From Candidatus Pacearchaeota archaeon (GTDB lineage: Archaea; Nanobdellota; Nanobdellia; Pacearchaeales; GW2011-AR1), in the NCBI GenBank assembly GCA_041648455.1, contig JBAZOZ010000002.1, forward strand, positions 1,531-65,530: DNA of 64,000 nt, in the 5' to 3' direction. How positions within the stretch are numbered: position 1 is the first letter of the stretch; each line of letters begins with the position of its first letter. Of this stretch, positions 1,318 through 62,496 are shown in pieces. Under the pieces are notes generated by a model, which worked only from the letters and a program-made list of their open reading frames with translations, was not told the origin of the DNA and did no database searches. Made by a program: the position numbers and the translations under genes.

Positions 1318-1821
1318 TTATCTCTTTCCTTCTAAATCTAAATAAGCCTTTGCTTGGCCGAGAAATTCGTCGCAGCCGCCAATTATTTTGTCTTCCATCT
1401 GATCTACTCTGCTTGGAATGACCCATTTTTCATAAATACTTCTTAAAAATTTGTTGAACGCGTTTGTTTCGAATTTTCCTTTGTAATCTCTCGTCAGAGT
1501 TCCCTTGATTGAAATTTCTACTGAACCCTTGTTGGTGTTTACTTTTTTTCCACCCTCGGTTATTTCAACTTTTGTCAATCCGAGAATTTTGAAAGTTATC
1601 TTTGCATCAAACTTAAAATAATCTGTGATTTTTCTGAATCCAGTCCACATAATATCAATATTTTTCGAATCTCCTAGAATTTTTTCAACATATTTATCTT
1701 CATTCATTAAAAGAAGTGTCTCTTCAGTAAGCCAGTCATAACAGAATTTGTAAAAATCCGCGAAGTTAAAAACTCCATTATATTTTACCTTGCTTGAAAA
1801 TACTATGTCTTTTTCAGCCAT
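1318..1821 (-). CDS. Hypothetical protein (168 aa); start taken at MAEKD
   Basis: ORF 1318..1863 in track. The first 14 codons lie inside the conserved hairpin element, so ATG at 1821 (MAEKDIVF) is preferred. Confidence 0.45.
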   Translation of the reverse strand: MAEKDIVFSSKVKYNGVFNFADFYKFCYDWLTEETLLLMNEDKYVEKILGDSKNIDIMWTGFRKITDYFKFDAKITFKILGLTKVEITEGGKKVNTNKGSVEISIKGTLTRDYKGKFETNAFNKFLRSIYEKWVIPSRVDQMEDKIIGGCDEFLGQAKAYLDLEGKR

Positions 1822-2090
1822 TAAAAGAAACCCGCTGGTTTCTTTTGAACTTCCTCGAAACACTGAACGGTGGTATCTCTCTTTGCCTCCGAGGATACCA
1901 CGAAAAAGAAACTAAATTTATTTTGAATCTCCTCGAAATGCTGAACGGTGGTATCTCTCTTTGCCTCCGAGGATACCACGAAAAAGAAACTAAATTTATT
2001 TTGAATCTCCTCGAAATGCTGAACGGTGGCATCTTTATTAGCCTCCGAGGATACCACGAAAAAGAAACCATTGGTAAAATACCTCTGGTG
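1822..2090 (+). repeat. Conserved hairpin (AAAAGAAACCCGCTGGTTTCTTTT, 1822..1848) followed by three tandem copies of a 78-nt unit (period starts at 1853, 1931, 2009)
   Basis: Direct read: cctcgaaa(c/t)(a/g)ctgaacggtggtatctctctttgcctccgaggataccacgaaaaagaaactaaatttattttgaatct occurs three times, the third copy degenerate. 78 is a multiple of 3, so three ORF-track entries (1794..2102, 1814..2071, 1821..2138) are repeat artefacts. Confidence 0.85.
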
Positions 2091-5354: not shown

Positions 5355-5480
5355 CTGCATCTTGGAGTTGTCAAGAACCCTCGGAATAAATCCCAGGGCG
5401 TGTCTCGGGTTCTTGAACACCCCAAAAATTGTTTTTGCTTTCTCACGAATTAAAACAGGGAGTTTTACGCAAAAAACAAT
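5355..5480 (+). repeat. About 125-nt structured element, copy 1 (inverted copy at 40852..40977); candidate ncRNA or MITE-like element
   Basis: gtcaagaaccctcggaataaatcccagggcgtgtctcgggttcttgaacaccccaaaaattgtttttgctttctcacgaattaaaacagggagttttacgcaaaaaacaatttttgctg. It has a 9-bp stem CAAGAACCC/GGGTTCTTG and a roughly 16-bp stem CAAAAATTGTTTTTGC/GCAAAAAACAATTTTTG. The second copy carries compensatory substitutions. Confidence 0.7.
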
Positions 5481-5681
5481 TTTTGCTGTATTAATAAATA
5501 TTAAATTAAGAAACATCATCCATCCAAGATAATAAATTACACCTTTTTTGTTCATGAAAAAATAAAGAAAAGTTAATAAAAATTAGTATAGTGCAATTAA
5601 AAGACATTATTAATTTCCAATCCTATCTTTTGATATATTCGAGAAAACGAAATAGCAGATAGGAATTATTTTGATCTCTTA

Positions 5682-5990
5682 TTATAAATATTCTATTAAT
5701 TTATATATTTCATAACCAGCTCCTACGATACCGATAAGTAATGATAAACAACCTGTTGTTGCTTTACTATTTTTATTAACATTTGAAACGCAACTACAAT
5801 GGTCTTCACAATTACAGGTGTCCGCACATCTACAAACAATACAATCCTTATACTTATCATCGCTATTACACGGTGAAAATGTCTTATCCGAATTTAAATT
5901 TCTCTCTTTATTAAATTCATAAATTCCATTGATTTCTTGCTTTCCTAAAACTTCTCCATTCAAATCTTCTAATCTAAATTTATCTGTCAT
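5682..5990 (-). CDS. Cys-rich RiPP precursor-like peptide C (102 aa from MTDKF). Conserved leader plus a Cys-rich core (10 Cys) plus a C-terminal hydrophobic tail
   Basis: MTDKFRLEDLNGEVLGKQEINGIYEFNKERNLNSDKTFSPC...CIVCRCADTCNCEDHCSCV...TTGCLSLLIGIVGAGYEIYKLIEYL. The track ORF starts at a TTG at 6008; ATG at 5990 is preferred. Confidence 0.7.
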   Translation of the reverse strand: MTDKFRLEDLNGEVLGKQEINGIYEFNKERNLNSDKTFSPCNSDDKYKDCIVCRCADTCNCEDHCSCVSNVNKNSKATTGCLSLLIGIVGAGYEIYKLIEYL

Positions 5991-6004
5991 TTTATTTCTC
6001 GTTA

Positions 6005-6298
6005 TCAATATCTTATTAATTTATATATTTCATAACCAGCTCCTACGATTCCGCCAAGCAATAACAAACAACCAGTCGGTGATTTATGGTTTTGACTTTT
6101 ATTAACTCCATGATCTTCACAAACACAAGTATCTGCGCATCTACAAACAATCGGACAAGGGTTTTCATTTCTAGTACACGGCGAAAATGTCCTATCATCA
6201 TTTAATTCTCGTCGATTTTTAAACTGATAAACCCCATTAATTTCTTGTTCTCCTAAAACTCCTTCTTCTACATCTTCAAGTCTAAATTTGTTTTCCAT
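6005..6298 (-). CDS. Cys-rich RiPP precursor-like peptide B (97 aa). Same leader, a Cys-rich core (7 Cys) and a C-terminal hydrophobic tail
   Basis: MENKFRLEDVEEGVLGEQEINGVYQFKNRRELNDDRTFSPC...CPIVCRCADTCVCEDHG...TGCLLLLGGIVGAGYEIYKLIRY. Confidence 0.7.
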   Translation of the reverse strand: MENKFRLEDVEEGVLGEQEINGVYQFKNRRELNDDRTFSPCTRNENPCPIVCRCADTCVCEDHGVNKSQNHKSPTGCLLLLGGIVGAGYEIYKLIRY

Positions 6299-6315
6299 TT
6301 ATTTACGAATGGGTT

Positions 6316-6519
6316 TTAAATCGTTGCGCAGCCACAATGCTCTGAACAATAAGGTGAACAAACGTTAGGACAAGTTTTACCAGCACACTCACACATACCG
6401 GTACAGAATGTCCTATCTGAAACTAAGTTTCTTGTCGTTTTAAAATCATAAATTCCATTAATTTCTTGCTCTTCTTCAAATTCTTCACCAATATTATCTA
6501 ATCTAAATTTGTTTCCCAT
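6316..6519 (-). CDS. Cys-rich RiPP precursor-like peptide A (67 aa). Same leader and a 10-Cys core; no tail
   Basis: MGNKFRLDNIGEEFEEEQEINGIYDFKTTRNLVSDRTFCTGMCECAGKTCPNVCSPYCSEHCGCATI. Its start overlaps the maturase stop by 17 nt. Confidence 0.7.
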   Translation of the reverse strand: MGNKFRLDNIGEEFEEEQEINGIYDFKTTRNLVSDRTFCTGMCECAGKTCPNVCSPYCSEHCGCATI

Positions 6520-7876
6520 TTTGACCCCCTTTCAATTTTTGTTTTATTTCGTGAAATAAAATCCCCTGATTTATTGAACATCTTGAATTATTAATTGTGT
6601 CTTCTAAACTTCTTGATTGAGCATAGCCCTTCGCAAGACAATCACCACCACAATTATATTTCGCAAAACAATCTCTACAATTAGGAATATTTTCAACAAC
6701 TCTTCCTTGCAATCTTTTTATTTTTGTATCATCAAACTCAAATTGATTTTTATCAGGATTGTATTGCCCAACAATGAATATTTCAGCCATATCATCATCT
6801 TTTCTAGAGACCTCTAAGCACGTTGTAACTCTCCCTTCAGGAGATACAAGGAAGTTTTTCCCAGCAGCACCGCAAAAAGAATTATGGATTCCTTCTAATT
6901 TAGCTCCAGAATAATAAATCCCGACCTCTAATTTTTCAGCAGTTTGTTTAGCCTCAAGAAGATATTTTAGATAATCTTCTGGAGATGGTGCTCTTGCTTT
7001 TGTTGTTTTGCATCTTCCGCATTCAAACAAAGGCTCTAAATGAAAACTTTTATTTGAAGAAATTGAGTGAAAAAATTCTAAAATCTCAGACATTCTTGGT
7101 ACACTCTCTGCAGTAATTGTTGCCCTTATTCCATAAGGATATTTTTCTTCTTCTAATATTTTTATTGTCTCAACAACATAATCAGAAGAAGGCATAAACC
7201 GGTGGTTTGGTCCTGCCATTGGTCTCTGTGCATCTTGAATGTCTGCAGTACCGTCGAGAGAAATGTTTAATCTGTCAATATTTTTTAAAATCCATTCCAA
7301 ATCTCTATGATTTAAATTATTAAAAACACCGTTTGTTGCGCTTGAAACTCTTCCTTTCAAATTATTTTTTTCTGTCTGCTTATTAAAATATTCCACAGAT
7401 CTTTTTAAGAAATCTATATTTCCTCTTAAAAGAGGTTCTCCTCCCCCATGAAATCCAAGATGAATATCTTTGTTTCCGACTTTTAAACTATTTTTGACTA
7501 CTAAATCAATTGCAGATTTTGCAACATCAAATTCCATAATCTGTCCAACTCTTTCACCACCATGTGAATAACAATAAACACATCTGAGATTACAATTATA
7601 AGTTGGCATAAGTGTAATACTCGTAGGCTCATATTCAGAACCTTCTTTTTTTATATTGCAACTAGATTGAGATTCAACTAAAATTTTAGTCTTGATTAAT
7701 TGTTCTTTTATTTCTGGTTGTAAAGAAGATTCTTCTCCTTTTTTTATTTTTTTCAAAGCACCCACAACTCCCGAGCTCACAGAAACAACAGAACCCTCTA
7801 AAGGAACATAAAGAATAAATTTGTCTTCATCTGGGATAACAAAAAGCTCGTTATTGATTTCCATCTTATTTAACAC
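6503..7876 (-). CDS. Radical SAM / SPASM-domain peptide-modifying enzyme (anSME/sactisynthase-like) with N-terminal RRE/PqqD-like region
   Basis: CNLRCVYC (CX3CX2C) and GGGEPLL. The C-terminal SPASM pattern is FCGAAG...TTC...CRDCFAKYNCGGDC. The first 95 aa (FVIPDEDKFILYVPLEGSVVSV) resemble a peptide-binding RRE. Confidence 0.85.
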   Translation of the reverse strand: MLNKMEINNELFVIPDEDKFILYVPLEGSVVSVSSGVVGALKKIKKGEESSLQPEIKEQLIKTKILVESQSSCNIKKEGSEYEPTSITLMPTYNCNLRCVYCYSHGGERVGQIMEFDVAKSAIDLVVKNSLKVGNKDIHLGFHGGGEPLLRGNIDFLKRSVEYFNKQTEKNNLKGRVSSATNGVFNNLNHRDLEWILKNIDRLNISLDGTADIQDAQRPMAGPNHRFMPSSDYVVETIKILEEEKYPYGIRATITAESVPRMSEILEFFHSISSNKSFHLEPLFECGRCKTTKARAPSPEDYLKYLLEAKQTAEKLEVGIYYSGAKLEGIHNSFCGAAGKNFLVSPEGRVTTCLEVSRKDDDMAEIFIVGQYNPDKNQFEFDDTKIKRLQGRVVENIPNCRDCFAKYNCGGDCLAKGYAQSRSLEDTINNSRCSINQGILFHEIKQKLKGGQNGKQI

Positions 7877-8948: not shown

Positions 8949-10223
8949 ATGACATCATGGAAAAATATTAAAAAGAATTTAGATGAGAAAGTAGCTAATT
9001 CAAAAATAGGAAGAACTATCTTTTCAAGAACAGCAAAAGCTATTGCTTTAGGTAGTCTTATTACTACGGCATTGGTTGGAGGAGTTAAATATCATAACTG
9101 GAGAAGTGAGCCAGTTTATAAACATGAAATAAGTGCTGTAGCACCAAGAAACTATAATCCTAACAAAGCAAGCTTAGCAAACAAATTATTACAAGATTTT
9201 CCTACTGAAATTCCTGGGGCTGCTCAAGTTGATAAATATGTTATACCAGAAGCGAAATATTGTTTAGTTCATGTTAGACAAAAACACGTTGTTAAAGGGG
9301 ATTTTAAATATATTTATCATCTAACTGAAAAAGAAATTGAAAATATGAGGAAATTTTTTGAATTAAGTGAAAAAGAAATTAGGGATTTAATCAAAGATGA
9401 TTCTAAAGAAAATGTTTTTGAAAGAACTAAACGATTAAAAAAAACAACAGAAGTTCAAGCAGATATTTATCGAATTTTGGAAAATTTAATTTTAAATAAG
9501 GGATTAAAAGAGGTTTATGATGAGGGATTAACTCCTGAATTTGAAGATTGGAATACTCAAAAATTTAAGACAGATAAATTATGGGATAAAGTCTATAGAA
9601 CTCTTGGAAGTAATGAAAAAAGAGTAAGGGGAGAAATAAGTGAACTTGAGAAAAAAATTAAAGAAGGTAAACAGAGTGTTTCTGTTGCTCTAGAAGCGGA
9701 TTTTGAATATCCTAATGATAAAAATTGTATTGATAAATATCTTTCTAAATTAAGTCAAGAACTTGAAGAACAAAGAAAAAAATTACCTGAAGTTATTGGA
9801 GAAGATAATAAACATGAGCAAGAAAAGAAAAATAGATATCAGTATGATGCAGTGGACAAAGCAGGATTTAATTATGGAATAAAAATTATTCCTGCTGAAA
9901 CTCTTAAGGGGAATATAAGGGCATCACTTGCTATGGATGAAATCAAGAGAGGAAATAAAGATCCGAAATTAGATGAAAAGATATTCGATAACAGAGAAGA
10001 TATTCTTCTTCAATACATCGCCGATCAGAATGAACCTCTTGCAATAAGTGTTTATGGTGGAGCTCATGCATGGGGAGGGAGAGAGTCCTTTGGTACTTCC
10101 TATCCTACAACTGAAAGGACATCTCTAAAAGATAAAGATAATATTGCAGAATGGAATAAAAAACATCCCGACAAAAAATTTTCATTAATAGAAATTACAC
10201 CGACACATTATGAAAAGAAGTGA
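8949..10223 (+). CDS. Membrane-anchored hypothetical protein (single N-terminal TM, about 380-aa soluble domain)
   Basis: TM segment AKAIALGSLITTALVGGV; no recognisable catalytic motif. Confidence 0.45.
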   Translation: MTSWKNIKKNLDEKVANSKIGRTIFSRTAKAIALGSLITTALVGGVKYHNWRSEPVYKHEISAVAPRNYNPNKASLANKLLQDFPTEIPGAAQVDKYVIPEAKYCLVHVRQKHVVKGDFKYIYHLTEKEIENMRKFFELSEKEIRDLIKDDSKENVFERTKRLKKTTEVQADIYRILENLILNKGLKEVYDEGLTPEFEDWNTQKFKTDKLWDKVYRTLGSNEKRVRGEISELEKKIKEGKQSVSVALEADFEYPNDKNCIDKYLSKLSQELEEQRKKLPEVIGEDNKHEQEKKNRYQYDAVDKAGFNYGIKIIPAETLKGNIRASLAMDEIKRGNKDPKLDEKIFDNREDILLQYIADQNEPLAISVYGGAHAWGGRESFGTSYPTTERTSLKDKDNIAEWNKKHPDKKFSLIEITPTHYEKK

Positions 10224-10331: not shown

Positions 10332-10501
10332 TGCGCGATACGAGAATCGAACTCGTGTCTCAACGTTTTTGCTTTCTCGCGATTTCCGTCGGAGGCAATT
10401 TAAGAAATCGCCTTACAGCGTCGAAAAAGGAAGGTGTGTGAGAGGAAACCATAGGTTTCCTTCATTGGCAACGTTACGTTCTACCACTAAACCAATCGCG
10501 C
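10332..10501 (-). tRNA. tRNA-Gly(GCC) with a 98-nt intron at canonical position 37/38 (intron 10367..10464)
   Basis: Minus-strand read GCGCGAT-TG-GTTT-AGTGGTA-GAAC-G-TAACG-TTGCCA[intron]A-CGTTG-AGAC-ACGAG-TTCGATT-CTCGT-ATCGCGC-A. Acceptor 7/7, anticodon stem 5/5 (one G-U), T-stem perfect. The intron holds an 8-bp hairpin GCGATTTC..GAAATCGC. Confidence 0.6.
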
Positions 10502-10564
10502 ATAAATAATTCATAGAAAAATAATATTTAAAAGTTGCTGTGGCAACTTTTAACTCTTCAAGAT

Positions 10565-10682
10565 CAGAAAAACGATGCGCCATTGCATTTTTTAAGATGC
10601 GGTTTATTCGGCGCTCGTTTTTTGGATGCTCAAGATTCTAACCACACATCCAGTGTGTGGTTTTTGTCAAGAATCTTGACAT
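10565..10682 (+). repeat. Left copy of an approximately 118-bp inverted-repeat pair (partner 11655..11773)
   Basis: cagaaaaacgatgcgcc...gatgcggtttattcggcgctcgttttttggatgctcaagattctaaccacacatccagtgtgtggtttttgtcaagaatcttgacat. The reverse complement of 11655..11773 matches over the full length with a few substitutions. Internal hairpins AACCACACA/TGTGTGGTT and GTCAAGA/TCTTGAC. Confidence 0.8.
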
Positions 10683-11020: not shown

Positions 11021-11602
11021 TCATCTTTTTATTTCTTTGCCGCCTATTATTAATGTTGATGGTCTGCCTTCTAATTTTCCAGCATCTATTATTATATCAA
11101 TTTTATCTTCGATTTCTTTTGGGATTTCATTTATAGATTCTATTGCAGATTCTCCAGAGAGATTTACAGAAGTTGTTATAAATGGTTTTCCAGAGTTTTG
11201 AATTATTTTTGTGAATTCATTATATGGAATTCTTATTCCTATTGAATCTGTATTAGAAACATGTTTTAAAAAATCAAGATTTTTCTTCTTTAAAATTATT
11301 GTATAGGGACCTGGAAGATATTTATTTAAATCTGTGTCAATTATCAAATTTTCCTCTATCCATTTTATATAAGGAGCAATAATTGATAATGGTTTATCTC
11401 TATCTCTTTGTTTTATTTGTTTTATTTTTTCAACAGAATCTTTATTTTCTGCATCACATCCAAGCCCATATATTGTATCTGTTGGATAAATAAATATTTT
11501 ACCTTCTTCAATTCCAATTAATATTTCTTCTTCATCTATTTCATTTATCTTTATTATTTTCATATATAATCCAGTAGACAATAGGTTAAAAAATTTAAGC
11601 AT
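11021..11602 (-). CDS. tsaC: L-threonylcarbamoyladenylate synthase, TsaC/YrdC/Sua5 family
   Basis: YPTDTIYGLGCDA, LPGPYTIIL, IGIRIP, ITTSVNLSG and STLI motifs. Likely start at MKIIKIN (11563). Confidence 0.8.
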   Translation of the reverse strand: MLKFFNLLSTGLYMKIIKINEIDEEEILIGIEEGKIFIYPTDTIYGLGCDAENKDSVEKIKQIKQRDRDKPLSIIAPYIKWIEENLIIDTDLNKYLPGPYTIILKKKNLDFLKHVSNTDSIGIRIPYNEFTKIIQNSGKPFITTSVNLSGESAIESINEIPKEIEDKIDIIIDAGKLEGRPSTLIIGGKEIKR

Positions 11603-11654
11603 TATTGTAATCGAGAAATATGGCCCTACGAGGGACTCACAAAAGCATTTTCAT

Positions 11655-11773
11655 GATGTCAAGATTCTTGACAAAACCACACACTTAAGTGTGTGTGGTT
11701 AGAATCTTGAACATCCAAAAAACGAGCGCCGAATAAACCGCATCTTTCAAGGTGCGGTGGCGCATCGTTTTTC
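11655..11773 (-). repeat. Right copy of the approximately 118-bp inverted-repeat pair
   Basis: atgtcaagattcttgacaaaaccacacacttaagtgtgtggttagaatcttgaacatccaaaaaacgagcgccgaataaaccgcatc...gcgcatcgtttttctg is the reverse complement of 10565..10682. Confidence 0.8.
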
Positions 11774-11807
11774 TGATTTATATATTTTAGTAAAAATGCT
11801 TTCGCTC

Positions 11808-11834
11808 GGTTGAACCTCGGACTACTCGGTGTAA
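11808..11834 (-). other. 27-nt duplicate of the tRNA-Val 3' portion (anticodon loop through T-loop), att-like fragment
   Basis: gttgaacctcggactactcggtgtaaac is identical to 12512..12538 inside tRNA-Val(TAC) and diverges on both sides. Confidence 0.6.
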
Positions 11835-11911
11835 ACTAATATATCATAAAGCATCTAAATAAAAAGAGCACTTTAAGATAGCTCGTTTAACACGAATGGT
11901 TTTTATTTAGT

Positions 11912-12497: not shown

Positions 12498-12568
12498 TGG
12501 CCCATCGAGGAGTTGAACCTCGGACTACTCGGTGTAAACGAGTCATTTTACCGCTAGACTAATAGGCC
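12498..12568 (-). tRNA. tRNA-Val(TAC)
   Basis: Minus-strand read GGCCTAT...ACTCG-TTTACAC-CGAGT-AGTC-CGAGG-TTCAACT-CCTCG-ATGGGCC-A. Acceptor 7/7 (one G-U), perfect anticodon and T stems, GG in D-loop, no encoded CCA. Confidence 0.7.
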
Positions 12569-14356: not shown

Positions 14357-14427
14357 TTGGCTTCAGAGAAAAGTTCTGAATATAAAATGAAAAAAACAAG
14401 AAATTTTTTACCTCTTAAACACAGGAT

Positions 14428-14823
14428 GTGTTCAAGATGAGAAGACAAAGAAATTTGATTGTTGGTAAGGAAGAAGCCATTCCGGTTGGAGCGGTTTTTC
14501 AAAGAAGTAAATATTATTTTATCGTCGGGAATTCTGATGAGAATGGAATGATTAATTATTGTTCTATTGATAGATTTGCTTTTGCATCTGAAAGATTAAA
14601 ATATAATGATGGAATAGAACACCTCACAATTCAAGAAAGCCCGTTTTATTTTTCAAGGCAGCACATCAATTGGATTAGAAATTATCTTAATAATAACGAA
14701 GCCAAAAATCTTAGCAAAATAGAAATAGATAATCTTAAGCAAGATTTAGATGTTGCAGCCAGAGATGGATTAAAAAAGGATGTTAAGAAGTTGATTGAAA
14801 TTTGTTCTGAGAAGAAGATTTAA
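14428..14823 (+). CDS. Hypothetical protein (131 aa)
   Basis: ORF track only. Confidence 0.35.
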   Translation: MFKMRRQRNLIVGKEEAIPVGAVFQRSKYYFIVGNSDENGMINYCSIDRFAFASERLKYNDGIEHLTIQESPFYFSRQHINWIRNYLNNNEAKNLSKIEIDNLKQDLDVAARDGLKKDVKKLIEICSEKKI

Positions 14824-24452: not shown

Positions 24453-24709
24453 TTGATGAATATGAAAATACAAAAATTTCTAATTTTTGTCCTTCAAAAA
24501 CAAGAAGTTTTAGAAGAAATAGGAAATTTTTTACCTTTTACAGAAATTAGAAATTTCTGTCCTACGGAAAATAGGAAAAACAAAAAAGTTTTTCATCTCT
24601 CCAAATCAAGAAGATTTGAAGATAAGAAATTTTCCGTCCCGTTCAAAACGGGAGATTTTGAAGGTTACAAAACAGGAAGTTTTGAAAGTAAAAATAGGAA
24701 ATTTGAAAA
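24453..24709 (+). repeat. AGGAA-core module array upstream of the GluRS-like gene; the first 80 nt are a conserved block shared with 39489.. and 62373..
   Basis: atgaaaatacaaaaatttctaatttttgtccttcaaaaacaagaagttttagaagaaataggaaattttttacctttta...aacaggaagttttgaaagtaaaaataggaaatttgaaaaATG. Confidence 0.8.
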
Positions 24710-36838: not shown

Positions 36839-37027
36839 TTAACGAGTTTTGATTGCAAACTCGCCCTTGCTTTTTAATTTTAATTTCTGCGCGATTTCGG
36901 ATTTTTCTGGATCTAAAATAATTACTCTTCCTTTGAATCCTTCTGTTGATTCACGAGATTCACATTTAGGACATTTTTCTAATTCATGTATTGTACTGCA
37001 AATTTTGCATGCTTTTTGTTTTGCCAT
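36839..37027 (-). CDS. spt4: Transcription elongation factor Spt4 / RNAP subunit E''
   Basis: MAKQKACKICSTIHELEKCPKCES...GRVIILDPEKSEIAQKL. Confidence 0.8.
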   Translation of the reverse strand: MAKQKACKICSTIHELEKCPKCESRESTEGFKGRVIILDPEKSEIAQKLKLKSKGEFAIKTR

Positions 37028-37215
37028 TAAAAGAACCCCGCTGGTTTCCTCAGAAATTGAAAATTTCTGGGACATTCAAAATTTGCATTTTGAAGTTTTT
37101 GAACTTCCTCAAATTGTGGAACGGCGATATGAAAAACTTTATTGTTTTTCATCCTTCCGAAACAAGAAGTTTCGAAAGTTTTCAGAAATGCCTCCGACGA
37201 AAATTGCATAAGAAA
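37028..37215 (+). repeat. Second locus of the hairpin-plus-78-nt-unit element family, abutting the spt4 start codon
   Basis: ttaaaagaaccccgctggtttcc...tgaacttcctcaaattgtggaacggcgatatg...gcctccgacgaaaattgcataagaaaca parallels 1822..1940. Confidence 0.65.
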
Positions 37216-39487: not shown

Positions 39488-39632
39488 AAATACAAAAATT
39501 AAAAATTTTTGTCCTTCAAGATGGAAAACAAAAAAGTTTTCCATCCCTAAAAATCAGGAAGATTTTAAGGAAACAAGAATTTTTAGAAGAAATAAGAAAT
39601 TTTTTACCTTTTAAAAACAGGAAATTTTTAAA
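39488..39632 (+). repeat. AGGAA-core module array upstream of 39633
   Basis: atgaaaatacaaaaattaaaaatttttgtccttcaaga...aatcaggaagattttaagg...aaataagaaattttttaccttttaaaaacaggaaatttttaaaATG. Confidence 0.8.
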
Positions 39633-40316
39633 ATGAACAAAGCAATAATTTTCGACTCGGGAACTTTGATTAGTTTATCAATGAGTGGTTTACTTGATAG
39701 TATTCGTGATTTAAAAAGAATATTCAATGGACATTTTTTAATTACAAAAGATGTCAAAGAAGAAATTATTGACAAACCACTTACAATAAAAAAATTTGAA
39801 CTTGAAGCTTTGAGAATTAAACAGCTTCTTGACGACGGCGTATTGGAGAGTTCAGATGTAATGAAAATCAGCAAAGAAGAAATTGATGCCGAAAAAAATA
39901 AATTTATAAATATTGCAAACGCAACTTTTTACGCAAGGGGGAAAGAAATTCATATAATTGATTTTGGTGAAGCGTCCTGTTTGGCTCTTAGCAAAATTCT
40001 AAGTGAAAAGAAAATTGAAAATGTTATTGCTGTCGATGAAAGAACTACAAGACTTCTTGGGGAAAAACCAGACAACATAAAAAAGATTATGGGGAATAAA
40101 TTACATACAAATATAAATTCCAATAAGGAAAACTACAAATTATTTCAGGGGTTTAAATTTATTAGATCGACCGAATTAATTTATGTTGCATATAAAAAAG
40201 GTTTTATTAACATAAAAGATGGTACAACTGTTCTTGACGCATTGCTTTATGCTTTAATGTTCAGCGGATGTTCTATTTCTTCTACAGAAATTAATGATAT
40301 AAAAAAAATGAAGTAA
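39633..40316 (+). CDS. Hypothetical protein, possibly PIN-like nuclease fold
   Basis: AIIFDSGTLISL...VDERTTRLL; weak. Confidence 0.4.
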   Translation: MNKAIIFDSGTLISLSMSGLLDSIRDLKRIFNGHFLITKDVKEEIIDKPLTIKKFELEALRIKQLLDDGVLESSDVMKISKEEIDAEKNKFINIANATFYARGKEIHIIDFGEASCLALSKILSEKKIENVIAVDERTTRLLGEKPDNIKKIMGNKLHTNINSNKENYKLFQGFKFIRSTELIYVAYKKGFINIKDGTTVLDALLYALMFSGCSISSTEINDIKKMK

Positions 40317-40632: not shown

Positions 40633-40703
40633 GGGTCTGTAGTTCATCGTTAGAATATCTGCCTCCAGAGCAGAAGAGGGGGGTTAAATTCCCTCCAGGC
40701 CCA
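40633..40703 (+). tRNA. Putative tRNA-Trp(CCA) with non-canonical D-loop (no GG) and T-loop (TTAAATT)
   Basis: GGGTCTG-TA-GTTC-ATCGTTA-GAAT-A-TCTGC-CTCCAGA-GCAGA-AGAG-GGGGG-TTAAATT-CCCTC-CAGGCCC-A. All four stems pair with G-U allowed. Missing G18G19 and C56 lowers confidence. Confidence 0.35.
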
Positions 40704-40830
40704 TTAAAAAGAACCCGCTGGTTCTTTTTAGAAATCTCCTCTAATGCTGAACGACGATTTCTAAATGCCTCCGGTGAAATCGTATAAAAGAACCCAAATA
40801 TTTTTCCTCTGGTAGAATCGCATAAAAGAT
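40704..40830 (+). repeat. Third, degenerate locus of the hairpin-plus-78-nt-unit element, abutting the tRNA 3' end
   Basis: ttaaaaagaacccgctggttctttttagaaatctcctctaatgctgaacgacgatttctaaatgcctccggtgaaatcg. Confidence 0.6.
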
Positions 40831-40851
40831 TATAATTATTTTATATACTAA

Positions 40852-40977
40852 TACAGCAAAAATTGTTTTTTGCGTAAACTCCCCGTTTTAACTCGTGAGA
40901 AAGCGAAAACAATTTTTGGGGTGTTCAAGAACCTGAGACACGCCCCGGAATTTATTCCGAGGGTTCTTGACATACTA
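40852..40977 (-). repeat. About 125-nt structured element, copy 2 (inverted relative to 5355..5480)
   Basis: Reverse complement reads gtcaagaaccctcggaataaattccggggcgtgtctcaggttcttgaacaccccaaaaattgttttcgctttctcacgagttaaaacggggagtttacgcaaaaaacaatttttgctgta. Confidence 0.7.
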
Positions 40978-41110: not shown

Positions 41111-41330
41111 GGGGCTGTGCTTTCGCACAGACTGAGTTTAATATTTTGTTATTACAGAAAATATGAAAAATAAAAAGTTTTTCATCCTGTTCACATGGAA
41201 AACAAAGAAGTTTTCCATTCCTCAAAATCAGAAAGATTTTAAGGAAACAGGAAGTTTTGAAGGTAAAAAAATTTTCTGTCCCTTAAATTTCAAGGGGATA
41301 ATATGAAATTAAAGGTGAAAGGAGGGTGAA
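41111..41330 (+). repeat. Hairpin GGGGCTGTGCTTTCGCACAGAC followed by AGGAA-core module array upstream of 41331
   Basis: Same hairpin-plus-array architecture as 29166..29305. Confidence 0.7.
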
Positions 41331-56644: not shown

Positions 56645-56914
56645 AATATTTATTTTTTTGATTTTTTATTTTTCATAATTAGTAAAGAAATTGCTTAAAA
56701 ATTCACAATCCCACCGTTCGCTGATGCTCACTTCGGAGCAAGCTCGGGAGTATTTGTGAATTTTTTGCTTTGCACCAGCAATTTCAGTCTCCAGGAAAAA
56801 ATAGATATTTTTTCAGGGCCATTCAAAATCATAGATTTTGAAGGTTCCAAATCTGGCACAGCAAGCTGTGGGGTATTGACCCAGATTTAGAAACAAAGAA
56901 AATGCAAATATAGA

Positions 56915-57121
56915 AAACAAAATAGTTTTCTATCCCTAAAAATTGAGAAAGTCTTAAGGAAACAGGAAATTTTTAAGATGAAAAAAATAACAAATTTTTT
57001 ACCTTTTCAAATCAGGAAAAATTTAAGATGCGGAAAACAGGAATTTTCCGTCTCGTTAAAAACAGGAAATTTTTAAGATGAAAAAAATAACAAATTTTTT
57101 ACCTTTTCAAATCAGGAAAAT
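56915..57121 (+). repeat. AGGAA-core module array containing a 101-nt direct duplication (56957..57017 and 57058..57118), upstream of 57122
   Basis: aaacaggaaatttttaagatgaaaaaaataacaaattttttaccttttcaaatcaggaaaa occurs twice. Confidence 0.8.
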
Positions 57122-57574
57122 TTGAAAATGAACAAAAAAATAACGATTATAATATTAGTAATTTTATTAACTGTGTTTGTTGGAGCATATTTAATAAAAC
57201 AAAAAGATCCAAGAATCCCCATTACTATTTATAAAACCCAAAGTTGCGGATGTTGCGAAGGTTTTATATCTGAATTAACTAAAGGTGGATTTGATGTTAA
57301 AATGAATGTTGAGGATAATATAGATATAAAAGGAAAATATAACATTCCAGAAGAAATGCGAAGTTGTCATACTTCTTTTGTTAAGGGTTATTTTGTAGAA
57401 GGACATGTTCCTCTTGAAGCTATAAATAAATTAATTGAAGAATCTCCTGAAATTGATGGGATTGCATTACCTGGAATGCCTTCTGGTTCTTTGGGAATGC
57501 CAGGAATAAAAGATGGACGACTTAAAATATATTCTATCACCAATGGAACAGCTTCTATTTTTATGGAAATATGA
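57122..57574 (+). CDS. CopG/DUF411-like metal-binding protein (membrane anchored)
   Basis: N-terminal TM; CGCCEGF and CH motifs. Confidence 0.55.
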   Translation: MKMNKKITIIILVILLTVFVGAYLIKQKDPRIPITIYKTQSCGCCEGFISELTKGGFDVKMNVEDNIDIKGKYNIPEEMRSCHTSFVKGYFVEGHVPLEAINKLIEESPEIDGIALPGMPSGSLGMPGIKDGRLKIYSITNGTASIFMEI

Positions 57575-57712
57575 AAGAATTTCCTACTTTCAACATGGAA
57601 AATAAGAGATTTTCCATGCCATTCAAAACAAAAAGTTTTGAAGGAAACAGGAAGTTTTCAAAATGTGAAAAACTTCCTATTTTTCACCTTTTAAATTCAG
57701 GAAGAATTCAAA

Positions 57713-59224
57713 ATGAATGCAATTAACAATCTTTTAAAGAAAAGGTGGAATCCATTTGCTTTCAGAGTTGTTTCTCTTATTGTTTTTATCTTTATAATAA
57801 TTATTCTTTATCTTGGATCTTTGAAATTAATTTTTAATTTTAATAGTAATTCAGTTATGTTCATTTTGTGGACTTTGTGGTGGCCATTTTTGTATATTAG
57901 TTTATTATTTCTTGGGAGATTTTGGTGTGGTTTTATTTGCCCGATTGGGTTGTCAAATGAAATGGGAAATTCTATTAGAAAGACAAAAAAAGATTATCTG
58001 ATAAAATATGGATTTATTCCTTTTGTGATATTCTTTCTAATTGTGTTCTGGGAGCAGGTTTCTGGATTGTTCTCGTCGACAAAAATAACTTTAATTTTTC
58101 TGGCAACTTTTCTTATCTCCTCTTTTATTGCAGGTATTTTAATGCCTAGATGGGGATTTTGCAAACATTTTTGTCCTATTGGTTCTTTGTTTGGACCCTT
58201 TAGCAGACTTTCTTTTTTAAGTATCAGAACAAATAGAGAAATTTGTAAGTCGTGCAAAACGAAAGAATGTATTAGAGGAGGAAAAGTTGAGCCATGTCCA
58301 ATGTTTAATGATGTTCCTAATTTAAACAGCAATAAAGATTGTCTTTTATGCACTAATTGTATAAAAAATTGCCCGTATGATTCTGCTAAATTAAGTTTTG
58401 TAAAACCAGGAGAGGAATTAATTAAGAAATCAGGATTTAATCTTCCGGAATCTTTGTTTATTATAGCCTTGCTTGGATTTAGTGTTTTATTGACGACAAG
58501 AGGAACCAATATTTTTAGATTAATTGAATTTAGCGGAGTTTGGATAAGAGCGTTTGATTTTGTATTTGGAATCGGGTTCTTTATTTTGGCTTATTTTATT
58601 ATAACCTATATTTCGACTAACTTAGACAAAGGAAATAAAAATTTTAAAATCAATTTAATAAATGGAGGATATGTATTTTTACCTTTGGTTTTTTCTTTAA
58701 TGTTTTTCTTAATTGTCTTTGGATTTATAACTCCCTTAACCAATATAGATGGAAATATAATTGCTTTGAGTAAATATACTCTCTTAGGCATCGGAGGAAT
58801 TTGGGGCTGGAAACTTGCAAAAGATATTTTTGAAAAAAGAAATTTTGTTTATAGAATTTCAATAATCTTGATTATATTATTCTGGGTTTTGGCTTTAATT
58901 CCAGGTCCATTAAATATTTTTCCAGATAATACCGGAATTTATTTTGCAAAAAGAGGCGAAACAATTAATATGAGAGCGTTTAGTATGGGATTTGATCCTA
59001 CAGTAATTAAGATTGAATCCGGAGAAGGATTTGATATAAATGTGACAAACCAAGATATGGTTCATTCCTTTGTTATTAATGAATTAAATATCAGTGTTAA
59101 TATTCCTAGCGGGAAAAATAGGCTTATAAGGTTTGGTAATCTTGAAAAAGGAAAGTATGAATATTATTGTGCAATTCCAGGACATAAGGAAGCTGGAATG
59201 AAAGGAGTGTTAATTGTGGAATAA
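57713..59224 (+). CDS. Polytopic membrane protein with 4Fe-4S ferredoxin motifs (NapH/CcoG-like polyferredoxin) fused to a C-terminal cupredoxin domain
   Basis: CLLCTNCIKNCP (Cx2Cx2Cx3CP) and CKSCKTKEC. C-terminus GKYEYYCAIPGHKEAGMKGVLIV. Confidence 0.65.
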   Translation: MNAINNLLKKRWNPFAFRVVSLIVFIFIIIILYLGSLKLIFNFNSNSVMFILWTLWWPFLYISLLFLGRFWCGFICPIGLSNEMGNSIRKTKKDYLIKYGFIPFVIFFLIVFWEQVSGLFSSTKITLIFLATFLISSFIAGILMPRWGFCKHFCPIGSLFGPFSRLSFLSIRTNREICKSCKTKECIRGGKVEPCPMFNDVPNLNSNKDCLLCTNCIKNCPYDSAKLSFVKPGEELIKKSGFNLPESLFIIALLGFSVLLTTRGTNIFRLIEFSGVWIRAFDFVFGIGFFILAYFIITYISTNLDKGNKNFKINLINGGYVFLPLVFSLMFFLIVFGFITPLTNIDGNIIALSKYTLLGIGGIWGWKLAKDIFEKRNFVYRISIILIILFWVLALIPGPLNIFPDNTGIYFAKRGETINMRAFSMGFDPTVIKIESGEGFDINVTNQDMVHSFVINELNISVNIPSGKNRLIRFGNLEKGKYEYYCAIPGHKEAGMKGVLIVE

Positions 59225-60354: not shown

Positions 60355-60614
60355 TTACACCAAACCTTTTATAATAACTATTGATTAAGTTGATTAATGA
60401 AAAGAAGGTATTCGTTCCCCTCAAATGAGACAAAGATTAATGAGAGACAAAGTAATTCAGAATATTGAACGAAAATTAAATTTATCGTAAATAAACAAAG
60501 AAGGAGAAAGTTAAATGAAAAAAATAGAAATTTTTTACCTCTCAAACTTAGGAAAAGTTCAAGATACAGAAAATAGGAAATTTTCTGTCTCATTAAGAAT
60601 AGGAAATTTTTAAG

Positions 60615-61691
60615 ATGAAGATAAAGAATATATTAAAAGATGAAAAAATATTGACAATTATAATTGCTGTTTTGGTTGTTTTATTTGCAATTTTATTATC
60701 GTTTCCAAACATGACTAGTCCTATAAAAGATATTATGAGTAAAGAAAAAATTTATTCTGTTGATATTATTAAAATTAATGGGTGTGATGATTGTTTTGAT
60801 TTAAATAGGGTATTAACTGTTGTGAAAAAAGATAATAGCATAGAGATAAAAGAAATTAAAGACTTAGATTACAAAAGCAAAGAAGCAGAATCATTAATAA
60901 AAGAATATGGAATAAAAACAACCCCTGCCCTAATAGTAAAATCAAGGGGAATAGAAAAAAGAGAATTCAACAAAGAAATATTTTCCTCAGGTAAAAATTA
61001 TCTTCTTTTCGATAAGTCAGTTCCATATTTAGATTTGTCTTCTGGAGAAATTAAAGGAAAGGTTGATTTTAAAGAGATTCAGGATAGTTCGTGTAAAGAA
61101 TGCCCAAGTTTATCCTCGCTAGAAAAACAATTAGAAGCCCTTGGTATTAAAAAGAAAAATTATGAAATAATTGATTCATCACAAGAAGAAGGAAAGAAGT
61201 TAATAAAAGATAATAACATTAGATTTTACAATAATTTAATTATAGGAAAAGAAATTAAGGCATATTGGTGGATATTTCCAAGTTTGAGTAAGGCATTGAC
61301 AGAAGAGAAGGATTATTATGTATTTTCAGAGCCGATTGTGTATCCTTATAAAGATGCAATTACGGGTATGATTAAAGGAAAAGTAGAAGTAATTTATGTT
61401 ACAGCAAATGACTGTAATGATTGTTCTAATGTTTCAGTTTTAAAAGAAGATTTTGAAAAATCCGGCGTTTATATTGCTAAAGATAAATATATTGATTACT
61501 CGTCGGGAGAAGGGAAACAGATAACTTCTAATTATAATATAAATGCTGTGCCAACAATTATACTTTCAAAAGAGATATTAGATTATCCCAGATTATCAGA
61601 AACCTTGAAAGAATTAGGGACTTTTGAAAAAGACGATTCTTTTGTTTTTAGAGAATTAAAAAAATTAAATCTAAAATATAAAGAAATATGA
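60615..61691 (+). CDS. Membrane-anchored protein with two thioredoxin-fold CxxC domains (extracytoplasmic thiol-disulfide oxidoreductase)
   Basis: N-terminal TM; INGCDDC...TTPALIV and VTANDCNDC...NAVPTIIL. Confidence 0.55.
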   Translation: MKIKNILKDEKILTIIIAVLVVLFAILLSFPNMTSPIKDIMSKEKIYSVDIIKINGCDDCFDLNRVLTVVKKDNSIEIKEIKDLDYKSKEAESLIKEYGIKTTPALIVKSRGIEKREFNKEIFSSGKNYLLFDKSVPYLDLSSGEIKGKVDFKEIQDSSCKECPSLSSLEKQLEALGIKKKNYEIIDSSQEEGKKLIKDNNIRFYNNLIIGKEIKAYWWIFPSLSKALTEEKDYYVFSEPIVYPYKDAITGMIKGKVEVIYVTANDCNDCSNVSVLKEDFEKSGVYIAKDKYIDYSSGEGKQITSNYNINAVPTIILSKEILDYPRLSETLKELGTFEKDDSFVFRELKKLNLKYKEI

Positions 61692-62131: not shown

Positions 62132-62368
62132 ATGGAAAATAAATTTTTAATTTTTGGTGTTGTTTCTTTAGTTGTCCTGTTAAGTATTGCGGTTGTTATA
62201 AAATTAAATAGAACTGGAGATGCAATCAACAACGAAGATTTAAACAAATATAGGTCTGAGAAAATTCCGCAGGAGTGCAGACTTTCACAAGGAGAAAATC
62301 TCCAATCATGGAAAGAACATTTGGGACATCATCAGGATACACTTTACTGTCTAGATTATTATAAATGA
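62132..62368 (+). CDS. Small membrane protein (78 aa)
   Basis: N-terminal TM. Confidence 0.35.
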   Translation: MENKFLIFGVVSLVVLLSIAVVIKLNRTGDAINNEDLNKYRSEKIPQECRLSQGENLQSWKEHLGHHQDTLYCLDYYK

Positions 62369-62496
62369 AAATACAAAAATTTCTAATTTTTGTCCTTCAA
62401 AAACAAGAAGTTTTAGAAGAAATAAGAAATTTTTTGTCTTTTACAAATAGGAAATTTGAAAAATAAAAATGGAAAAATTGAAAGGAGGTAAACAAC

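What the first reader, a model, noticed from the sequence alone, without database searches (positions are those of the whole stretch)
5355..5480. A 125-nt highly structured element present in two inverted copies 35 kb apart (5355..5480 and 40852..40977)
The two copies share about 90% identity. Two long stems (9 bp and about 16 bp) are preserved by compensatory changes (tttttgc/gcaaaaa versus ttttcgc/gcgaaaa). The first stem is followed by ACA. One copy lies at the 3' flank of the RiPP cluster, the other next to the tRNA-like gene and hairpin element.

Candidates are an H/ACA-like or other guide sRNA, a riboswitch-like element, or a MITE.
Basis: seen in the sequence. Interest (0 to 1): 0.5.

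Follow-up and report, generated by a model that had tools for sequence, protein, structure and literature searches.

The report
Small two-hairpin mobile repeat in Pacearchaeota
The two inverted 125-nt copies belong to a family of at least 27 near-identical, gene-free, hairpin-forming repeats scattered between genes of one tiny DPANN archaeal genome, so this is most likely a small parasitic mobile element and not a guide RNA or riboswitch.

Summary
The repeat is real. Its true limits are 5369-5494 (-) and 40848-40972 (+), and the copies are about 94% identical.

The pair is not special. An 18-mer scan of metagenomes plus a covariance model found about 50 copies. At least 27 of them are in the same Candidatus Pacearchaeota MAG as the window and average 96% identity. 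The window also holds two copies of a divergent subfamily, at 10560-10681 (+) and 11657-11779 (-).

Every copy has the form 5'-TT-[long hairpin H1]-[hairpin H2 with a conserved bulge]-CA-3'. Fourteen base pairs show changes on both sides across the family.

- The ends are sharp.
- There are no terminal inverted repeats.
- There is no target-site duplication.
- Copies are intergenic and face either way relative to their neighbours.
- Syntenic sites in close relatives are empty.
- Deleted, inverted and nested variants exist.

These features match palindrome-associated transposable elements (PATEs, IS200/IS605-type non-autonomous elements) and are REP-like. No transposase partner was found, so the mobilising enzyme is inferred.

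H/ACA, riboswitch and classical MITE readings fail their defining tests. No Rfam family matches. This is a new member of a known kind, of modest interest.

The parts
5369..5494 (-). Copy A of the two-hairpin repeat, subfamily 1. Read on the - strand it runs 5'-TTAATACAGC...GGGTTCTTGACA-3'.
   Evidence: Covariance-model hit of 142 bits; alignment to copy B; end positions from the family profile.
40848..40972 (+). Copy B of the two-hairpin repeat, subfamily 1. It lies 145 nt downstream of tRNA-Trp (40633-40703).
   Evidence: Covariance-model hit of 151.5 bits.
5417..5491 (-). Hairpin H1 of copy A. It comprises an outer 4-bp helix (ATAC/GTGT), a roughly 15-bp A/T-rich stem and a small inner hairpin.
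   Evidence: Consensus fold and pair counts; single-sequence folds.
5371..5416 (-). Hairpin H2 of copy A. It comprises a lower stem (TCAAGAA/TTCTTGA), a conserved 5' bulge (CCCGAGACACG) and an upper hairpin (CCCYGGRAT-TTA-TTCCGAGGG).
   Evidence: The upper stem shows 5 pairs with changes on both sides across the family.
40851..40924 (+). Hairpin H1 of copy B.
40925..40970 (+). Hairpin H2 of copy B.
10560..10681 (+). Copy C, from a divergent subfamily 2 with the same architecture (AAGATCAGAAAAACGATGCGCC...GGCGCTCGTTTTTTGGATGCTCAAGATTCT...AGAATCTTGACA). It lies 58 nt from an intron-containing tRNA.
   Evidence: Covariance-model hit of 26 bits, E=1e-3 over the whole window and 2.7e-5 locally; sequence; ssDNA fold z-score -7.9; inverted repeat I2.
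11657..11779 (-). Copy D, subfamily 2, inverted relative to copy C and about 92% identical to it. The two flank about 1 kb that carries a Sua5/YciO/YrdC-domain ORF.
   Evidence: Covariance-model hit of 28.5 bits; sequence; fold z-score -7.5; Pfam result for the enclosed ORF. The 3' end was extended by eye to the AAGAATCTTGACA terminus.

Best explanation
The element is a short (about 125 nt), non-coding, non-autonomous mobile repeat of the palindrome-associated kind. It resembles PATEs, the gene-less derivatives of IS200/IS605-type transposons, and is functionally akin to REP/BIME elements.

Shown:
- It consists of two abutting hairpins, 5'-TT-[H1]-[H2]-CA-3'. Their pairing is kept by compensatory changes across the family.
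- Its ends are defined to within 1-2 nt.
- It has no terminal inverted repeats and leaves no target-site duplication.
- It sits between genes in either orientation.
- It is present in at least 27 copies averaging 96% identity in this one small Pacearchaeota genome, and in diverged subfamilies in other AT-rich metagenome contigs.
- It is absent from the corresponding sites of close relatives.

Inferred:
- Copies spread when a transposase supplied in trans recognises the folded hairpins and the conserved terminal motifs (5' TTRATACA, linker GGGGTGTT, 3' TTGACA) on one DNA strand. That strand is the - strand of copy A and the + strand of copy B.
- The most likely enzyme is a single-strand-specific HUH/Y1 enzyme of the IS200/IS605 TnpA type.
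- The enzyme would then excise and reinsert the single strand without duplicating the target.

For: Copy number and distribution:
- A scan of metagenome contigs with TTGGGGTGTTCAAGAACC returned 61 loci. nhmmer and the covariance model find about 50 full elements in them, with up to 4 on one contig (3 of them within one fetched stretch).
- All element-bearing loci have 26-34% GC, like the window. Eighteen of the 19 loci without a full element are chance matches at 40-70% GC; the other (L062, 30% GC) carries a solo H2.
- Spurious ORFs called across the element all carry the NCBI locus-tag prefix WC584_, on contigs whose lengths match the window's 72,553-nt contig and the Ga0265296 contigs. So at least 27 copies lie in the window's own genome, at 92-100% identity with a mean of 96%.

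Structure:
- The consensus fold gives two adjacent hairpins.
- 95% of cells are paired, against 34-55% when the partners are slid.
- 11-14 pairs have changes on both sides, and 0 of 500 shuffles reach this.
- Subfamily 2 in the window keeps the architecture with almost every stem position changed.

Ends and target:
- Conservation starts at TT[AG]ATACA and stops after TTGACA. The flanks are at background composition.
- There is no excess of direct duplications of 2-8 bp at any offset.
- The termini are not inverted repeats (sequence).

Context:
- Copies are intergenic. The upstream neighbour is on the same strand in 22 cases and the opposite strand in 21; downstream the counts are 24 and 18.
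- There is no general link to tRNA genes.

Gain and loss:
- Relatives with 83-88% identical Lhr or 88-93% identical thermosome keep the flanking synteny but lack the element.
- L014 has AATAATATTTAAA|GATTAGTGTT uninterrupted where the window carries copy C.

Behaviour typical of a mobile element:
- The H1 interior is deleted in L021.
- H1 is inverted relative to H2 in L026/L075.
- A 58-nt mini-element is nested in the H1 loop in L019/L027.
- L062 has a solo H2.

Published definition: PATEs have no ITRs, have near-terminal palindromes, cause no target duplication and are too short for a transposase (PMC3119063, read). IS200/IS605 is the most widespread IS family in archaea (PMC13343696).
Against: - No transposase of any kind is encoded in the 64-kb window. 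A heuristic screen of 218 kb of the same MAG gave no TnpB-like ORF. tnpA was not screened for.
- No full-length parent element was found in which H1 and H2 are separated by a gene.
- H1 and H2 are not obviously alike. In many IS200/IS605 elements the left-end and right-end hairpins resemble each other.
- H1, at 75 nt, is far longer than typical IS200/IS605 end hairpins.
- No clean filled-versus-empty site pair was recovered. Absence of target duplication therefore rests on statistics over 44 insertions. The one near-empty site (L014 versus copy C) has extra unrelated bases on both sides.
- Within the MAG, substitutions are about as frequent in stems as in loops, so there is no sign of current purifying selection on structure in this genome.
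- The search pattern lies in the linker and H2 arm, so conservation of that part is partly an ascertainment effect.
Confidence: 0.6

Rival explanations
1. The element is a multi-copy structured small-RNA gene family. Each copy would be transcribed from the strand that folds best, giving for example an omega-RNA-like guide whose variable 3' flank acts as the guide, or another regulatory sRNA. This can coexist with mobility, since PATEs are reported to often encode omega RNAs.
For: - Covariation supports folding of one strand.
- The substitutions between the two window copies give G.U on the - strand of copy A and C.A on the other strand.
- Across the MAG copies, G.U versus A.C counts are 15 to 7 in favour of the same strand.
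- The RNA fold z-scores are -4.1 and -3.5 on that strand, against -1.8 and -3.1 on the other.
- The element ends exactly at ...GACA, next to variable flanks, which is the layout of an omega RNA scaffold followed by its guide.
- PMC10055086 states that PATEs often encode omega RNAs that act in trans.
Against: - No Rfam family matches, including guide-RNA families, even at E<=10.
- No TnpB-, IscB- or IS110-like gene was found in the window or in 218 kb of the MAG.
- The presumed sense strand carries T6 and T5 runs inside H1. Oligo-T tracts are the archaeal termination signal (general knowledge).
- The 15:7 wobble bias is weak (one-sided p about 0.07) and the counts are not independent.
- Single-stranded DNA hairpins recognised by a transposase would give the same covariation and the same strand asymmetry.
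- No expression data could be consulted.
Confidence: 0.15
2. The element is a host-domesticated REP-like repeat. It would spread rarely and be kept because the hairpins serve the cell, for example as bidirectional transcription terminators or insulators between closely packed genes, as mRNA 3'-end stabilisers, or as binding sites for a chromatin or topology protein.
For: - Location is strictly intergenic, often within tens of nucleotides of gene ends, in a very compact genome.
- Strong hairpins followed by T-runs are present on both strands.
- Modules occur in either relative orientation (L026), and a solo H2 exists (L062), as with BIME mosaics.
- The structure is kept across diverged subfamilies.
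Against: - Close relatives do without the element at the same intergenic sites.
- Copies occur in tandem, convergent and divergent intergenic regions alike, including promoter-side positions where a terminator would be harmful.
- Copies within the genome are 92-100% identical, which points to recent amplification and not to ancient conserved sites.
- Stems and loops accumulate substitutions at similar rates within the genome.
Confidence: 0.12
3. The element is a classical MITE, derived from a DDE-transposase insertion sequence and moved by cut-and-paste through terminal inverted repeats.
For: It is short, non-coding, multi-copy and intergenic.
Against: - The 5' end (TTAATACAGCAAAAA) and the reverse complement of the 3' end (TGTCAAGAACCC) are not alike.
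- There is no 2-8 bp target-site duplication.
- There is no DDE transposase in the window.
Confidence: 0.04
4. The element is an archaeal H/ACA (or other) guide sRNA gene present in two copies.
For: A 9-10 bp stem is followed by ACA on both strands.
Against: - The internal loop is one-sided: 11 nt on the 5' side and 0-1 nt on the 3' side. There is therefore no bipartite guide pocket.
- There is no K-turn or K-loop motif in the upper stem (sequence).
- There are at least 27 copies per genome, and none at syntenic sites of relatives.
- No H/ACA family in Rfam matches meaningfully. The only such hit is ceN41 at 16.8 bits against a gathering score of 50, E=1.1.
Confidence: 0.02

Closest known systems
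PATEs (palindrome-associated transposable elements) of Haloquadratum walsbyi and other haloarchaea, and the PATE-like elements of Geobacillus stearothermophilus. These are gene-less derivatives of IS200/IS605 (IS605/IS1341-type) transposons (PMC3119063; PMC10055086).
   Same: - No terminal inverted repeats.
- Palindromes at or near both ends.
- No target duplication.
- Too short to encode a protein.
- 'Homogeneous' families with more than 90% identity within a genome.
- Well-conserved short terminal oligonucleotides.
- Internal core deletions and nesting of elements within one another.
- An archaeal host.
   Different: - No IS200/IS605 parent with matching ends, and no tnpA or tnpB, was found here.
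- The hairpins abut the ends within 2 nt. They are not set 20-50 nt in from the ends.
- H1 is unusually long (75 nt) and unlike H2.
- A 4-6 nt targeting motif is not clearly separable from the element (TT, or TTRAT).
REP/BIME elements of enterobacteria and pseudomonads, mobilised by RAYT (TnpA_REP) transposases.
   Same: - Intergenic, structured and multi-copy.
- No terminal inverted repeats and no target duplication.
- Modules can occur in either relative orientation (L026/L075) or alone (L062).
- The structure is maintained by compensatory change.
   Different: - REPs are 20-40 nt single palindromes with a GTAG-type head and are usually clustered. This unit is a 125-nt two-hairpin composite.
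- It is found singly.
- The host is an archaeon.
- No RAYT was seen.
ERIC, BOX, Correia/NEMIS and RUP: 100-150-nt bacterial intergenic structured repeats.
   Same: Size range, intergenic location, strong predicted secondary structure, and tens to hundreds of copies.
   Different: Most of these have terminal inverted repeats and TA-type (or other) target duplications. This element has neither.
Archaeal H/ACA box sRNAs.
   Same: A hairpin with a 9-10 bp basal stem followed directly by ACA.
   Different: There is no two-sided pocket and no K-turn. The copy number is high. The element is not conserved at orthologous loci.

Membership tests
PATE (IS200/IS605-derived non-autonomous element) | No terminal inverted repeats. 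| tested here: met
   The 5' terminus TTRATACAKCAAAAA and the reverse complement of the 3' terminus TGTCAAGAACC do not match.
PATE (IS200/IS605-derived non-autonomous element) | Palindromes (hairpins) close to both termini. | tested here: met
   H1 starts 2 nt from the 5' end and H2 ends 2 nt from the 3' end. Both are supported by covariation.
PATE (IS200/IS605-derived non-autonomous element) | No target-site duplication. | tested here: met
   No enrichment of 2-8 bp direct repeats at any boundary offset in 44 insertions, compared with cross-paired controls. No clean empty site was available to confirm this directly.
PATE (IS200/IS605-derived non-autonomous element) | Too short to encode a transposase, and multi-copy with strain-specific insertions. 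| tested here: met
   The element is 125 nt. There are at least 27 copies in one MAG. It is absent at syntenic sites in relatives.
PATE (IS200/IS605-derived non-autonomous element) | Ends resemble those of an IS200/IS605 transposon (tnpA and/or tnpB) in the same or a related genome. | tested here: inconclusive
   No transposase is present in the window. No TnpB-like ORF was found in 218 kb of the MAG by a zinc-ribbon heuristic. The remaining roughly 75% of the genome could not be searched.
PATE (IS200/IS605-derived non-autonomous element) | A conserved 4-6 nt targeting motif immediately 5' of the left end. | tested here: inconclusive
   TT at positions -2 and -1 is 93-95% conserved, and TTRAT as a whole is conserved. 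It cannot be told apart from element sequence without empty sites. It is not conserved in the 3 subfamily-2 copies.
Classical MITE | Terminal inverted repeats related to an IS. | tested here: not met
Classical MITE | Target-site duplication. | tested here: not met
Archaeal H/ACA sRNA | A pseudouridylation pocket with 5' and 3' single-stranded guide strands. | tested here: not met
   The internal loop of H2 is 11 nt on the 5' side and 0-1 nt on the 3' side.
Archaeal H/ACA sRNA | A K-turn or K-loop (L7Ae site) in the upper stem. | tested here: not met
   The upper stem-loop CCCCGGAAUUUAUUCCGAGGG has no tandem sheared G.A motif (sequence). This was judged by inspection only.
Archaeal H/ACA sRNA | An ACA box directly 3' of the basal stem. 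| tested here: met
   ...GGGUUCUUGACA on the model strand, and ...UUGAACACC on the other strand.
Archaeal H/ACA sRNA | Guide complementarity to rRNA or tRNA around a target U. | not tested
   No rRNA of this organism was in hand. The test is moot because there is no pocket.
Riboswitch / cis-regulatory leader | A fixed position and orientation upstream of the regulated genes. | tested here: not met
   Orientation relative to neighbours is random (22 to 21 upstream, 24 to 18 downstream). Copies occur in all kinds of intergenic region.
REP/BIME | A short (20-40 nt) palindromic unit with a conserved head tetranucleotide, and an associated RAYT. | tested here: not met
   The unit is 125 nt with two different hairpins. 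No Y1 transposase was seen. The resemblance is functional only.
Any Rfam 15 family | A score at or above the gathering threshold. | tested here: not met
   Only four tRNAs in the window reach gathering score. The best sub-threshold hits on the element are 23 bits against thresholds of 50-86.

The most novel reading that the evidence does not exclude
The copies are not only selfish DNA. They would be a genome-wide set of trans-acting guide RNAs of the omega-RNA or bridge-RNA type: a constant H1-H2 scaffold ending at ...GACA, fused to a different flanking 'guide' at each of about 30 sites. They would serve a still unidentified RNA-guided nuclease or recombinase in an ultra-small DPANN genome. 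A variant of this reading is a previously undescribed transposition system whose enzyme recognises two abutting, dissimilar hairpins.
Probability: 0.1. Interest if true: 0.65.

Novelty: new member of a known kind. Interest (0 to 1): 0.3.

Why it matters
DPANN archaea such as Pacearchaeota have genomes under 1 Mb that are usually described as streamlined and poor in mobile DNA. This study found a burst of about 30 near-identical copies of a structured, gene-less element, with diverged subfamilies in other AT-rich metagenome contigs (Hainich-named and other samples). That shows active or recent intragenomic spread in such a genome.

Practical consequences:
- The element breaks assemblies.
- It produces spurious 'hypothetical protein' calls. 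Nine were found in NCBI annotation of this MAG.
- It can be mistaken for sRNA genes, as happened here.

The covariance model built here (R1) could be used to mask or annotate the family. If the partner enzyme were identified, it would define which single-strand transposition system works in these archaea. Beyond that, the finding is an ordinary example of a known class.

Tried and rejected
- Rfam at gathering score over the whole window, and at E<=10 on both copies, gave nothing relevant.
- Four viral-contig scans with different parts of the element gave no hit.
- The GTDB genome scan with a 20-mer gave only two chance hits, inside bacterial genes.
- blastn against phages and plasmids gave no match.
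- Synteny was checked through Lhr and thermosome homologues. Relatives lack the element, so a conserved sRNA gene and an inversion between the two copies were both rejected. The flanking order is kept on both sides.
- A coding reading was rejected. The frame that is open across the two window copies is closed in the family consensus, and the substitutions are not synonymous-biased. The database 'proteins' are spurious ORFs from one MAG.
- A 5S rRNA, SRP or RNase P fragment was rejected because there are no Rfam hits.
- An integron attC array was rejected because copies have mixed orientation and irregular spacing.
- Association with tRNA genes was seen for 3 of the 4 window copies but is not general.
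- A blastn search for filled-versus-empty sites among all fetched loci found only unrelated repeats. The exception is L014 versus copy C, which is not clean.
- A screen for a TnpB-like partner gave one candidate, which turned out to be a PP-loop ATPase.
- A possible resemblance between the inner hairpin of H1 and the upper hairpin of H2 (11 of 21 identical, with a bulge at the same place) was considered as left-end/right-end similarity. It was dropped because the two do not co-vary across subfamilies (by inspection).

Full report
**1. Observation**

Aligned, the two copies differ by six substitutions, all transitions, and one single-base indel over about 125 nt, which is about 94% identity. 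A 22-mer from the element occurs exactly twice in the window and never in 100 shuffles.

The family profile places the conserved unit at 5369-5494 on the - strand and 40848-40972 on the + strand. Both long stems exist.

The specific "compensatory change" is an error. ttttcgc and gcgaaaa are the same T->C substitution read on the two strands, and the partner arm is unchanged. This was the first hint of which strand folds. That strand also has the better fold z-scores as RNA: -4.1 and -3.5, against -1.8 and -3.1.

**2. Host and setting**

The window encodes a thermosome, an Lhr helicase, ribosomal proteins and an intron-containing tRNA, and has 31% GC. The Lhr protein is 100% identical to one that NCBI names as from a "MAG: Candidatus Pacearchaeota archaeon", on a 72,553-nt contig. 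The host is therefore a DPANN archaeon.

No Rfam family matches the element, either at gathering score or at E<=10 on 351-nt excerpts.

**3. Not a conserved gene**

I fetched syntenic loci from relatives through homologues of two neighbouring genes: Lhr at 83-88% identity, and thermosome at 88-93% identity. None of them contains the element.

The gene order on both sides is retained:
- thermosome ... NTP_transf_2-L35Ae-L16;
- Lhr-metallophosphoesterase ... DUF3368-PIN-Rpb7.

Both copies therefore sit in strain-variable islands, and the 35 kb between them has not been inverted.

**4. A large family**

A 20-mer scan of GTDB genomes gave only two chance hits in bacterial genes. Four viral scans gave nothing.

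An 18-mer from the linker and H2 arm returned 61 metagenome loci. Of these, 19 carry no full element. Eighteen of those have 40-70% GC and are chance matches. One (L062, 30% GC) carries a solo H2. The other 42 loci have 26-34% GC and carry about 50 elements, with up to four on one contig.

To reach other databases, I searched with the translation of the spurious ORF that gene callers place across the element. All nine hits are "hypothetical proteins" with the locus-tag prefix WC584_. They lie on the window's own 72,553-nt contig and on contigs whose lengths equal those of the Ga0265296 contigs. The window's genome, which has roughly 950 genes judging by tag numbers, therefore carries at least 27 copies. 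These are 92-100% identical, with a mean of 96%.

The covariance model also found two copies of a divergent subfamily in the window itself, at 10560-10681 (+) and 11657-11779 (-). This is the inverted repeat I2. A third copy of this subfamily lies next to a subfamily-1 copy in L050.

**5. Anatomy**

In the orientation of copy A's - strand and copy B's + strand, the unit reads 5'-TT-[H1]-[H2]-CA-3'.

- H1 has an outer helix ATAC/GTGT that pairs the 5' end with the linker. It then has a roughly 15-bp A/T-rich stem and a small inner hairpin.
- H2 has the lower stem TCAAGAA/TTCTTGA and a conserved 5' bulge (C)CCGAGACACG. Its upper hairpin has a 3' arm continuous with the lower stem.
- An alternative pairing of the CCC at columns 85-87 with the same GGG is possible. 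The A-U replacements at columns 98/114 in L042, L028, L044 and L054 favour the first version.

Across the family, 95% of cells are standard pairs, against 33-55% when partners are slid by 1-3 columns. Between 11 and 14 pairs show changes on both sides. None of 500 column shuffles reaches the observed values. Examples are TTG/CAA becoming TGC/GCA in H1, and CGGAA/TTCCG becoming ATACAA/TTGTAT or GTGC/GCAC in H2.

Subfamily 2 keeps the whole design with nearly every stem position replaced. It folds very strongly as single-stranded DNA (z-scores -7.9 and -7.5).

The shuffle control does not correct for relatedness. The slid-partner control and the between-subfamily replacements are the stronger evidence.

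**6. Boundaries and target**

Conservation begins abruptly at TT[AG]ATACA and ends after TTGACA. Positions beyond these are at background composition.

The two termini are not inverted repeats of each other. There is no excess of direct duplications of 2-8 bp at any of 36 boundary offsets, compared with cross-paired flanks.

One near-empty site exists. L014 reads AATAATATTTAAA|GATTAGTGTT where the window has copy C. The window insertion, however, carries 27 and 14 extra unrelated bases on its two sides, so it does not define the junction.

**7. Context**

All copies are intergenic. The nearest upstream ORF is co-oriented in 22 cases and opposed in 21. Downstream the counts are 24 and 18.

Proximity to tRNA genes holds for copies B, C and D in the window but is not general.

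No transposase, integrase or RNA-guided nuclease is encoded in the window. A crude screen of 218 kb of the MAG for TnpB-like ORFs found only a PP-loop ATPase.

**8. Variants**

- L021 has H1 reduced to its basal stem.
- L026 and L075 have H1 inverted relative to H2.
- L019 and L027 carry a 58-nt miniature relative nested in the H1 loop.
- L062 has a solo linker plus H2.

Within the MAG, substitutions per column are similar in stems (42 in 80 columns) and in loops (28 in 44 columns). Single-sided stem changes give G.U on the model strand 15 times and A.C 7 times. This is a weak bias towards the same strand as in section 1.

**9. Interpretation**

[quoted passage not shown] - a short, gene-less unit;
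- sharp ends;
- no terminal inverted repeats;
- no target duplication;
- terminal hairpins kept by covariation;
- a recent burst of near-identical copies;
- absence from orthologous sites;
- core deletions and nesting.

Such elements derive from IS200/IS605 transposons. These are the most widespread IS family in archaea (PMC13343696). They move as single strands, through hairpin recognition by a Y1 HUH transposase (established knowledge of IS608 and ISDra2).

I therefore take a PATE-like, trans-mobilised single-strand transposon as the best explanation. The class-level statement, that this is a mobile or selfish dispersed repeat, is well supported. The identity of the enzyme and the single-strand mechanism are inferred, because no partner element was found.

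**10. Rivals**

- An RNA role, such as an omega-RNA-like scaffold with the flank as guide, is not excluded and is compatible with a PATE origin (PMC10055086). It has no direct support here.
- A domesticated REP-like function, such as terminator or insulator, is possible but is not favoured, given absence in relatives and random placement.
- A classical MITE, an H/ACA sRNA and a riboswitch each fail defining tests (see the membership table).

**11. Verdict**

The detail about compensatory change is wrong, and the H/ACA and riboswitch ideas are wrong. The MITE idea is right in spirit.

The family appears undescribed: nothing was found in Rfam, in the phage or plasmid collections, or in two literature searches. 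It belongs to a known kind of element.

Interest is modest. It lies mainly in showing an active small mobile element in a streamlined DPANN genome, and in preventing mis-annotation.

Noticed in passing
window 10560-10681 (+) and 11657-11779 (-): A second, divergent subfamily of the same two-hairpin element. The two copies are inverted, about 92% identical, and bracket about 1 kb that carries a Sua5/YciO/YrdC-domain ORF (11021-11602, -). The relative L014 lacks both copies and also lacks the enclosed segment.
   Followed up: partly
window ~11795-11840 (-), 11622-11645, and tRNA-Val 12498-12568 (-); L014 3480-3620: A partial duplicate of the tRNA-Val 3' half (TTTACACCGAGTAGTCCGAGGTTCAAC...) and a further tRNA 3'-end fragment (TGGCCCTACGAGG) lie about 700 nt from the intact tRNA-Val. 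L014 has similar fragments. They look like scars (att-like duplications) of integration and excision at a tRNA gene.
   Followed up: partly
window 10332-10501 (-): A tRNA gene with an insertion (intron) of about 100 nt. Rfam detects it at 50 bits, but ARAGORN in bacterial mode misses it. A homologous intron-bearing tRNA lies downstream of the thermosome in L014.
   Followed up: no
window 5682-7876 (-): Three paralogous small cysteine-rich ORFs (108, 97 and 67 aa, with shared N-terminal leaders) lie next to a radical-SAM enzyme (457 aa). This is a RiPP-like cluster inside the same strain-variable island as copy A, and it is absent downstream of the thermosome in relatives.
   Followed up: no
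window, many intergenic sites (e.g. 1165-1278, 14383-14456, 24462-24676, 39521-39652, 41195-41284, 56907-57147, 57590-57732, 60510-60627, 62365-62445): Abundant A/T-rich intergenic repeats of about 50 nt, often in tandem with a 50-nt period (units such as GAAAATTTTTTACCTTTTAAAAACAGGAAATTTT). They also appear in the flanks of elements in other contigs of the MAG. They form a separate repeat family, or possibly promoter-region modules.
   Followed up: no
window 1839-2072: Three tandem copies of a 78-nt unit, 85-94% identical, each containing a GC-rich inverted repeat (GGTGGTATC...GAGGATACCAC).
   Followed up: no
window 1810-1852, 37016-37058, 40693-40735: Three copies of a short hairpin, AAAAGAA(A/C)CCCGCTGGTT(T/C)CTTTT. 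One lies immediately after tRNA-Trp. It looks like a terminator.
   Followed up: no
L026 4568-4690 (= L075), L019 817-992 (= L027), L021 1634-1716, L062 205-257: Structural variants of the element: H1 inverted relative to H2; a 58-nt miniature relative nested in the H1 loop; the H1 interior deleted; and a solo linker plus H2 without H1.
   Followed up: partly
NCBI annotation of the MAG (proteins P0241-P0249): Nine annotated 'hypothetical proteins' of 42-76 aa (WC584_00425, _00510, _00785, _01105, _01135, _02180, _03330, _04020, _04730) are spurious ORFs read across copies of this repeat.
   Followed up: yes
window 8949-10223 (+) versus L015 10971-12244: A 424-aa ORF with no Pfam match in the window is called as two ORFs (179 and 248 aa) in the 99.9% identical ENA assembly. 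This could be a frameshift or an assembly difference.
   Followed up: no
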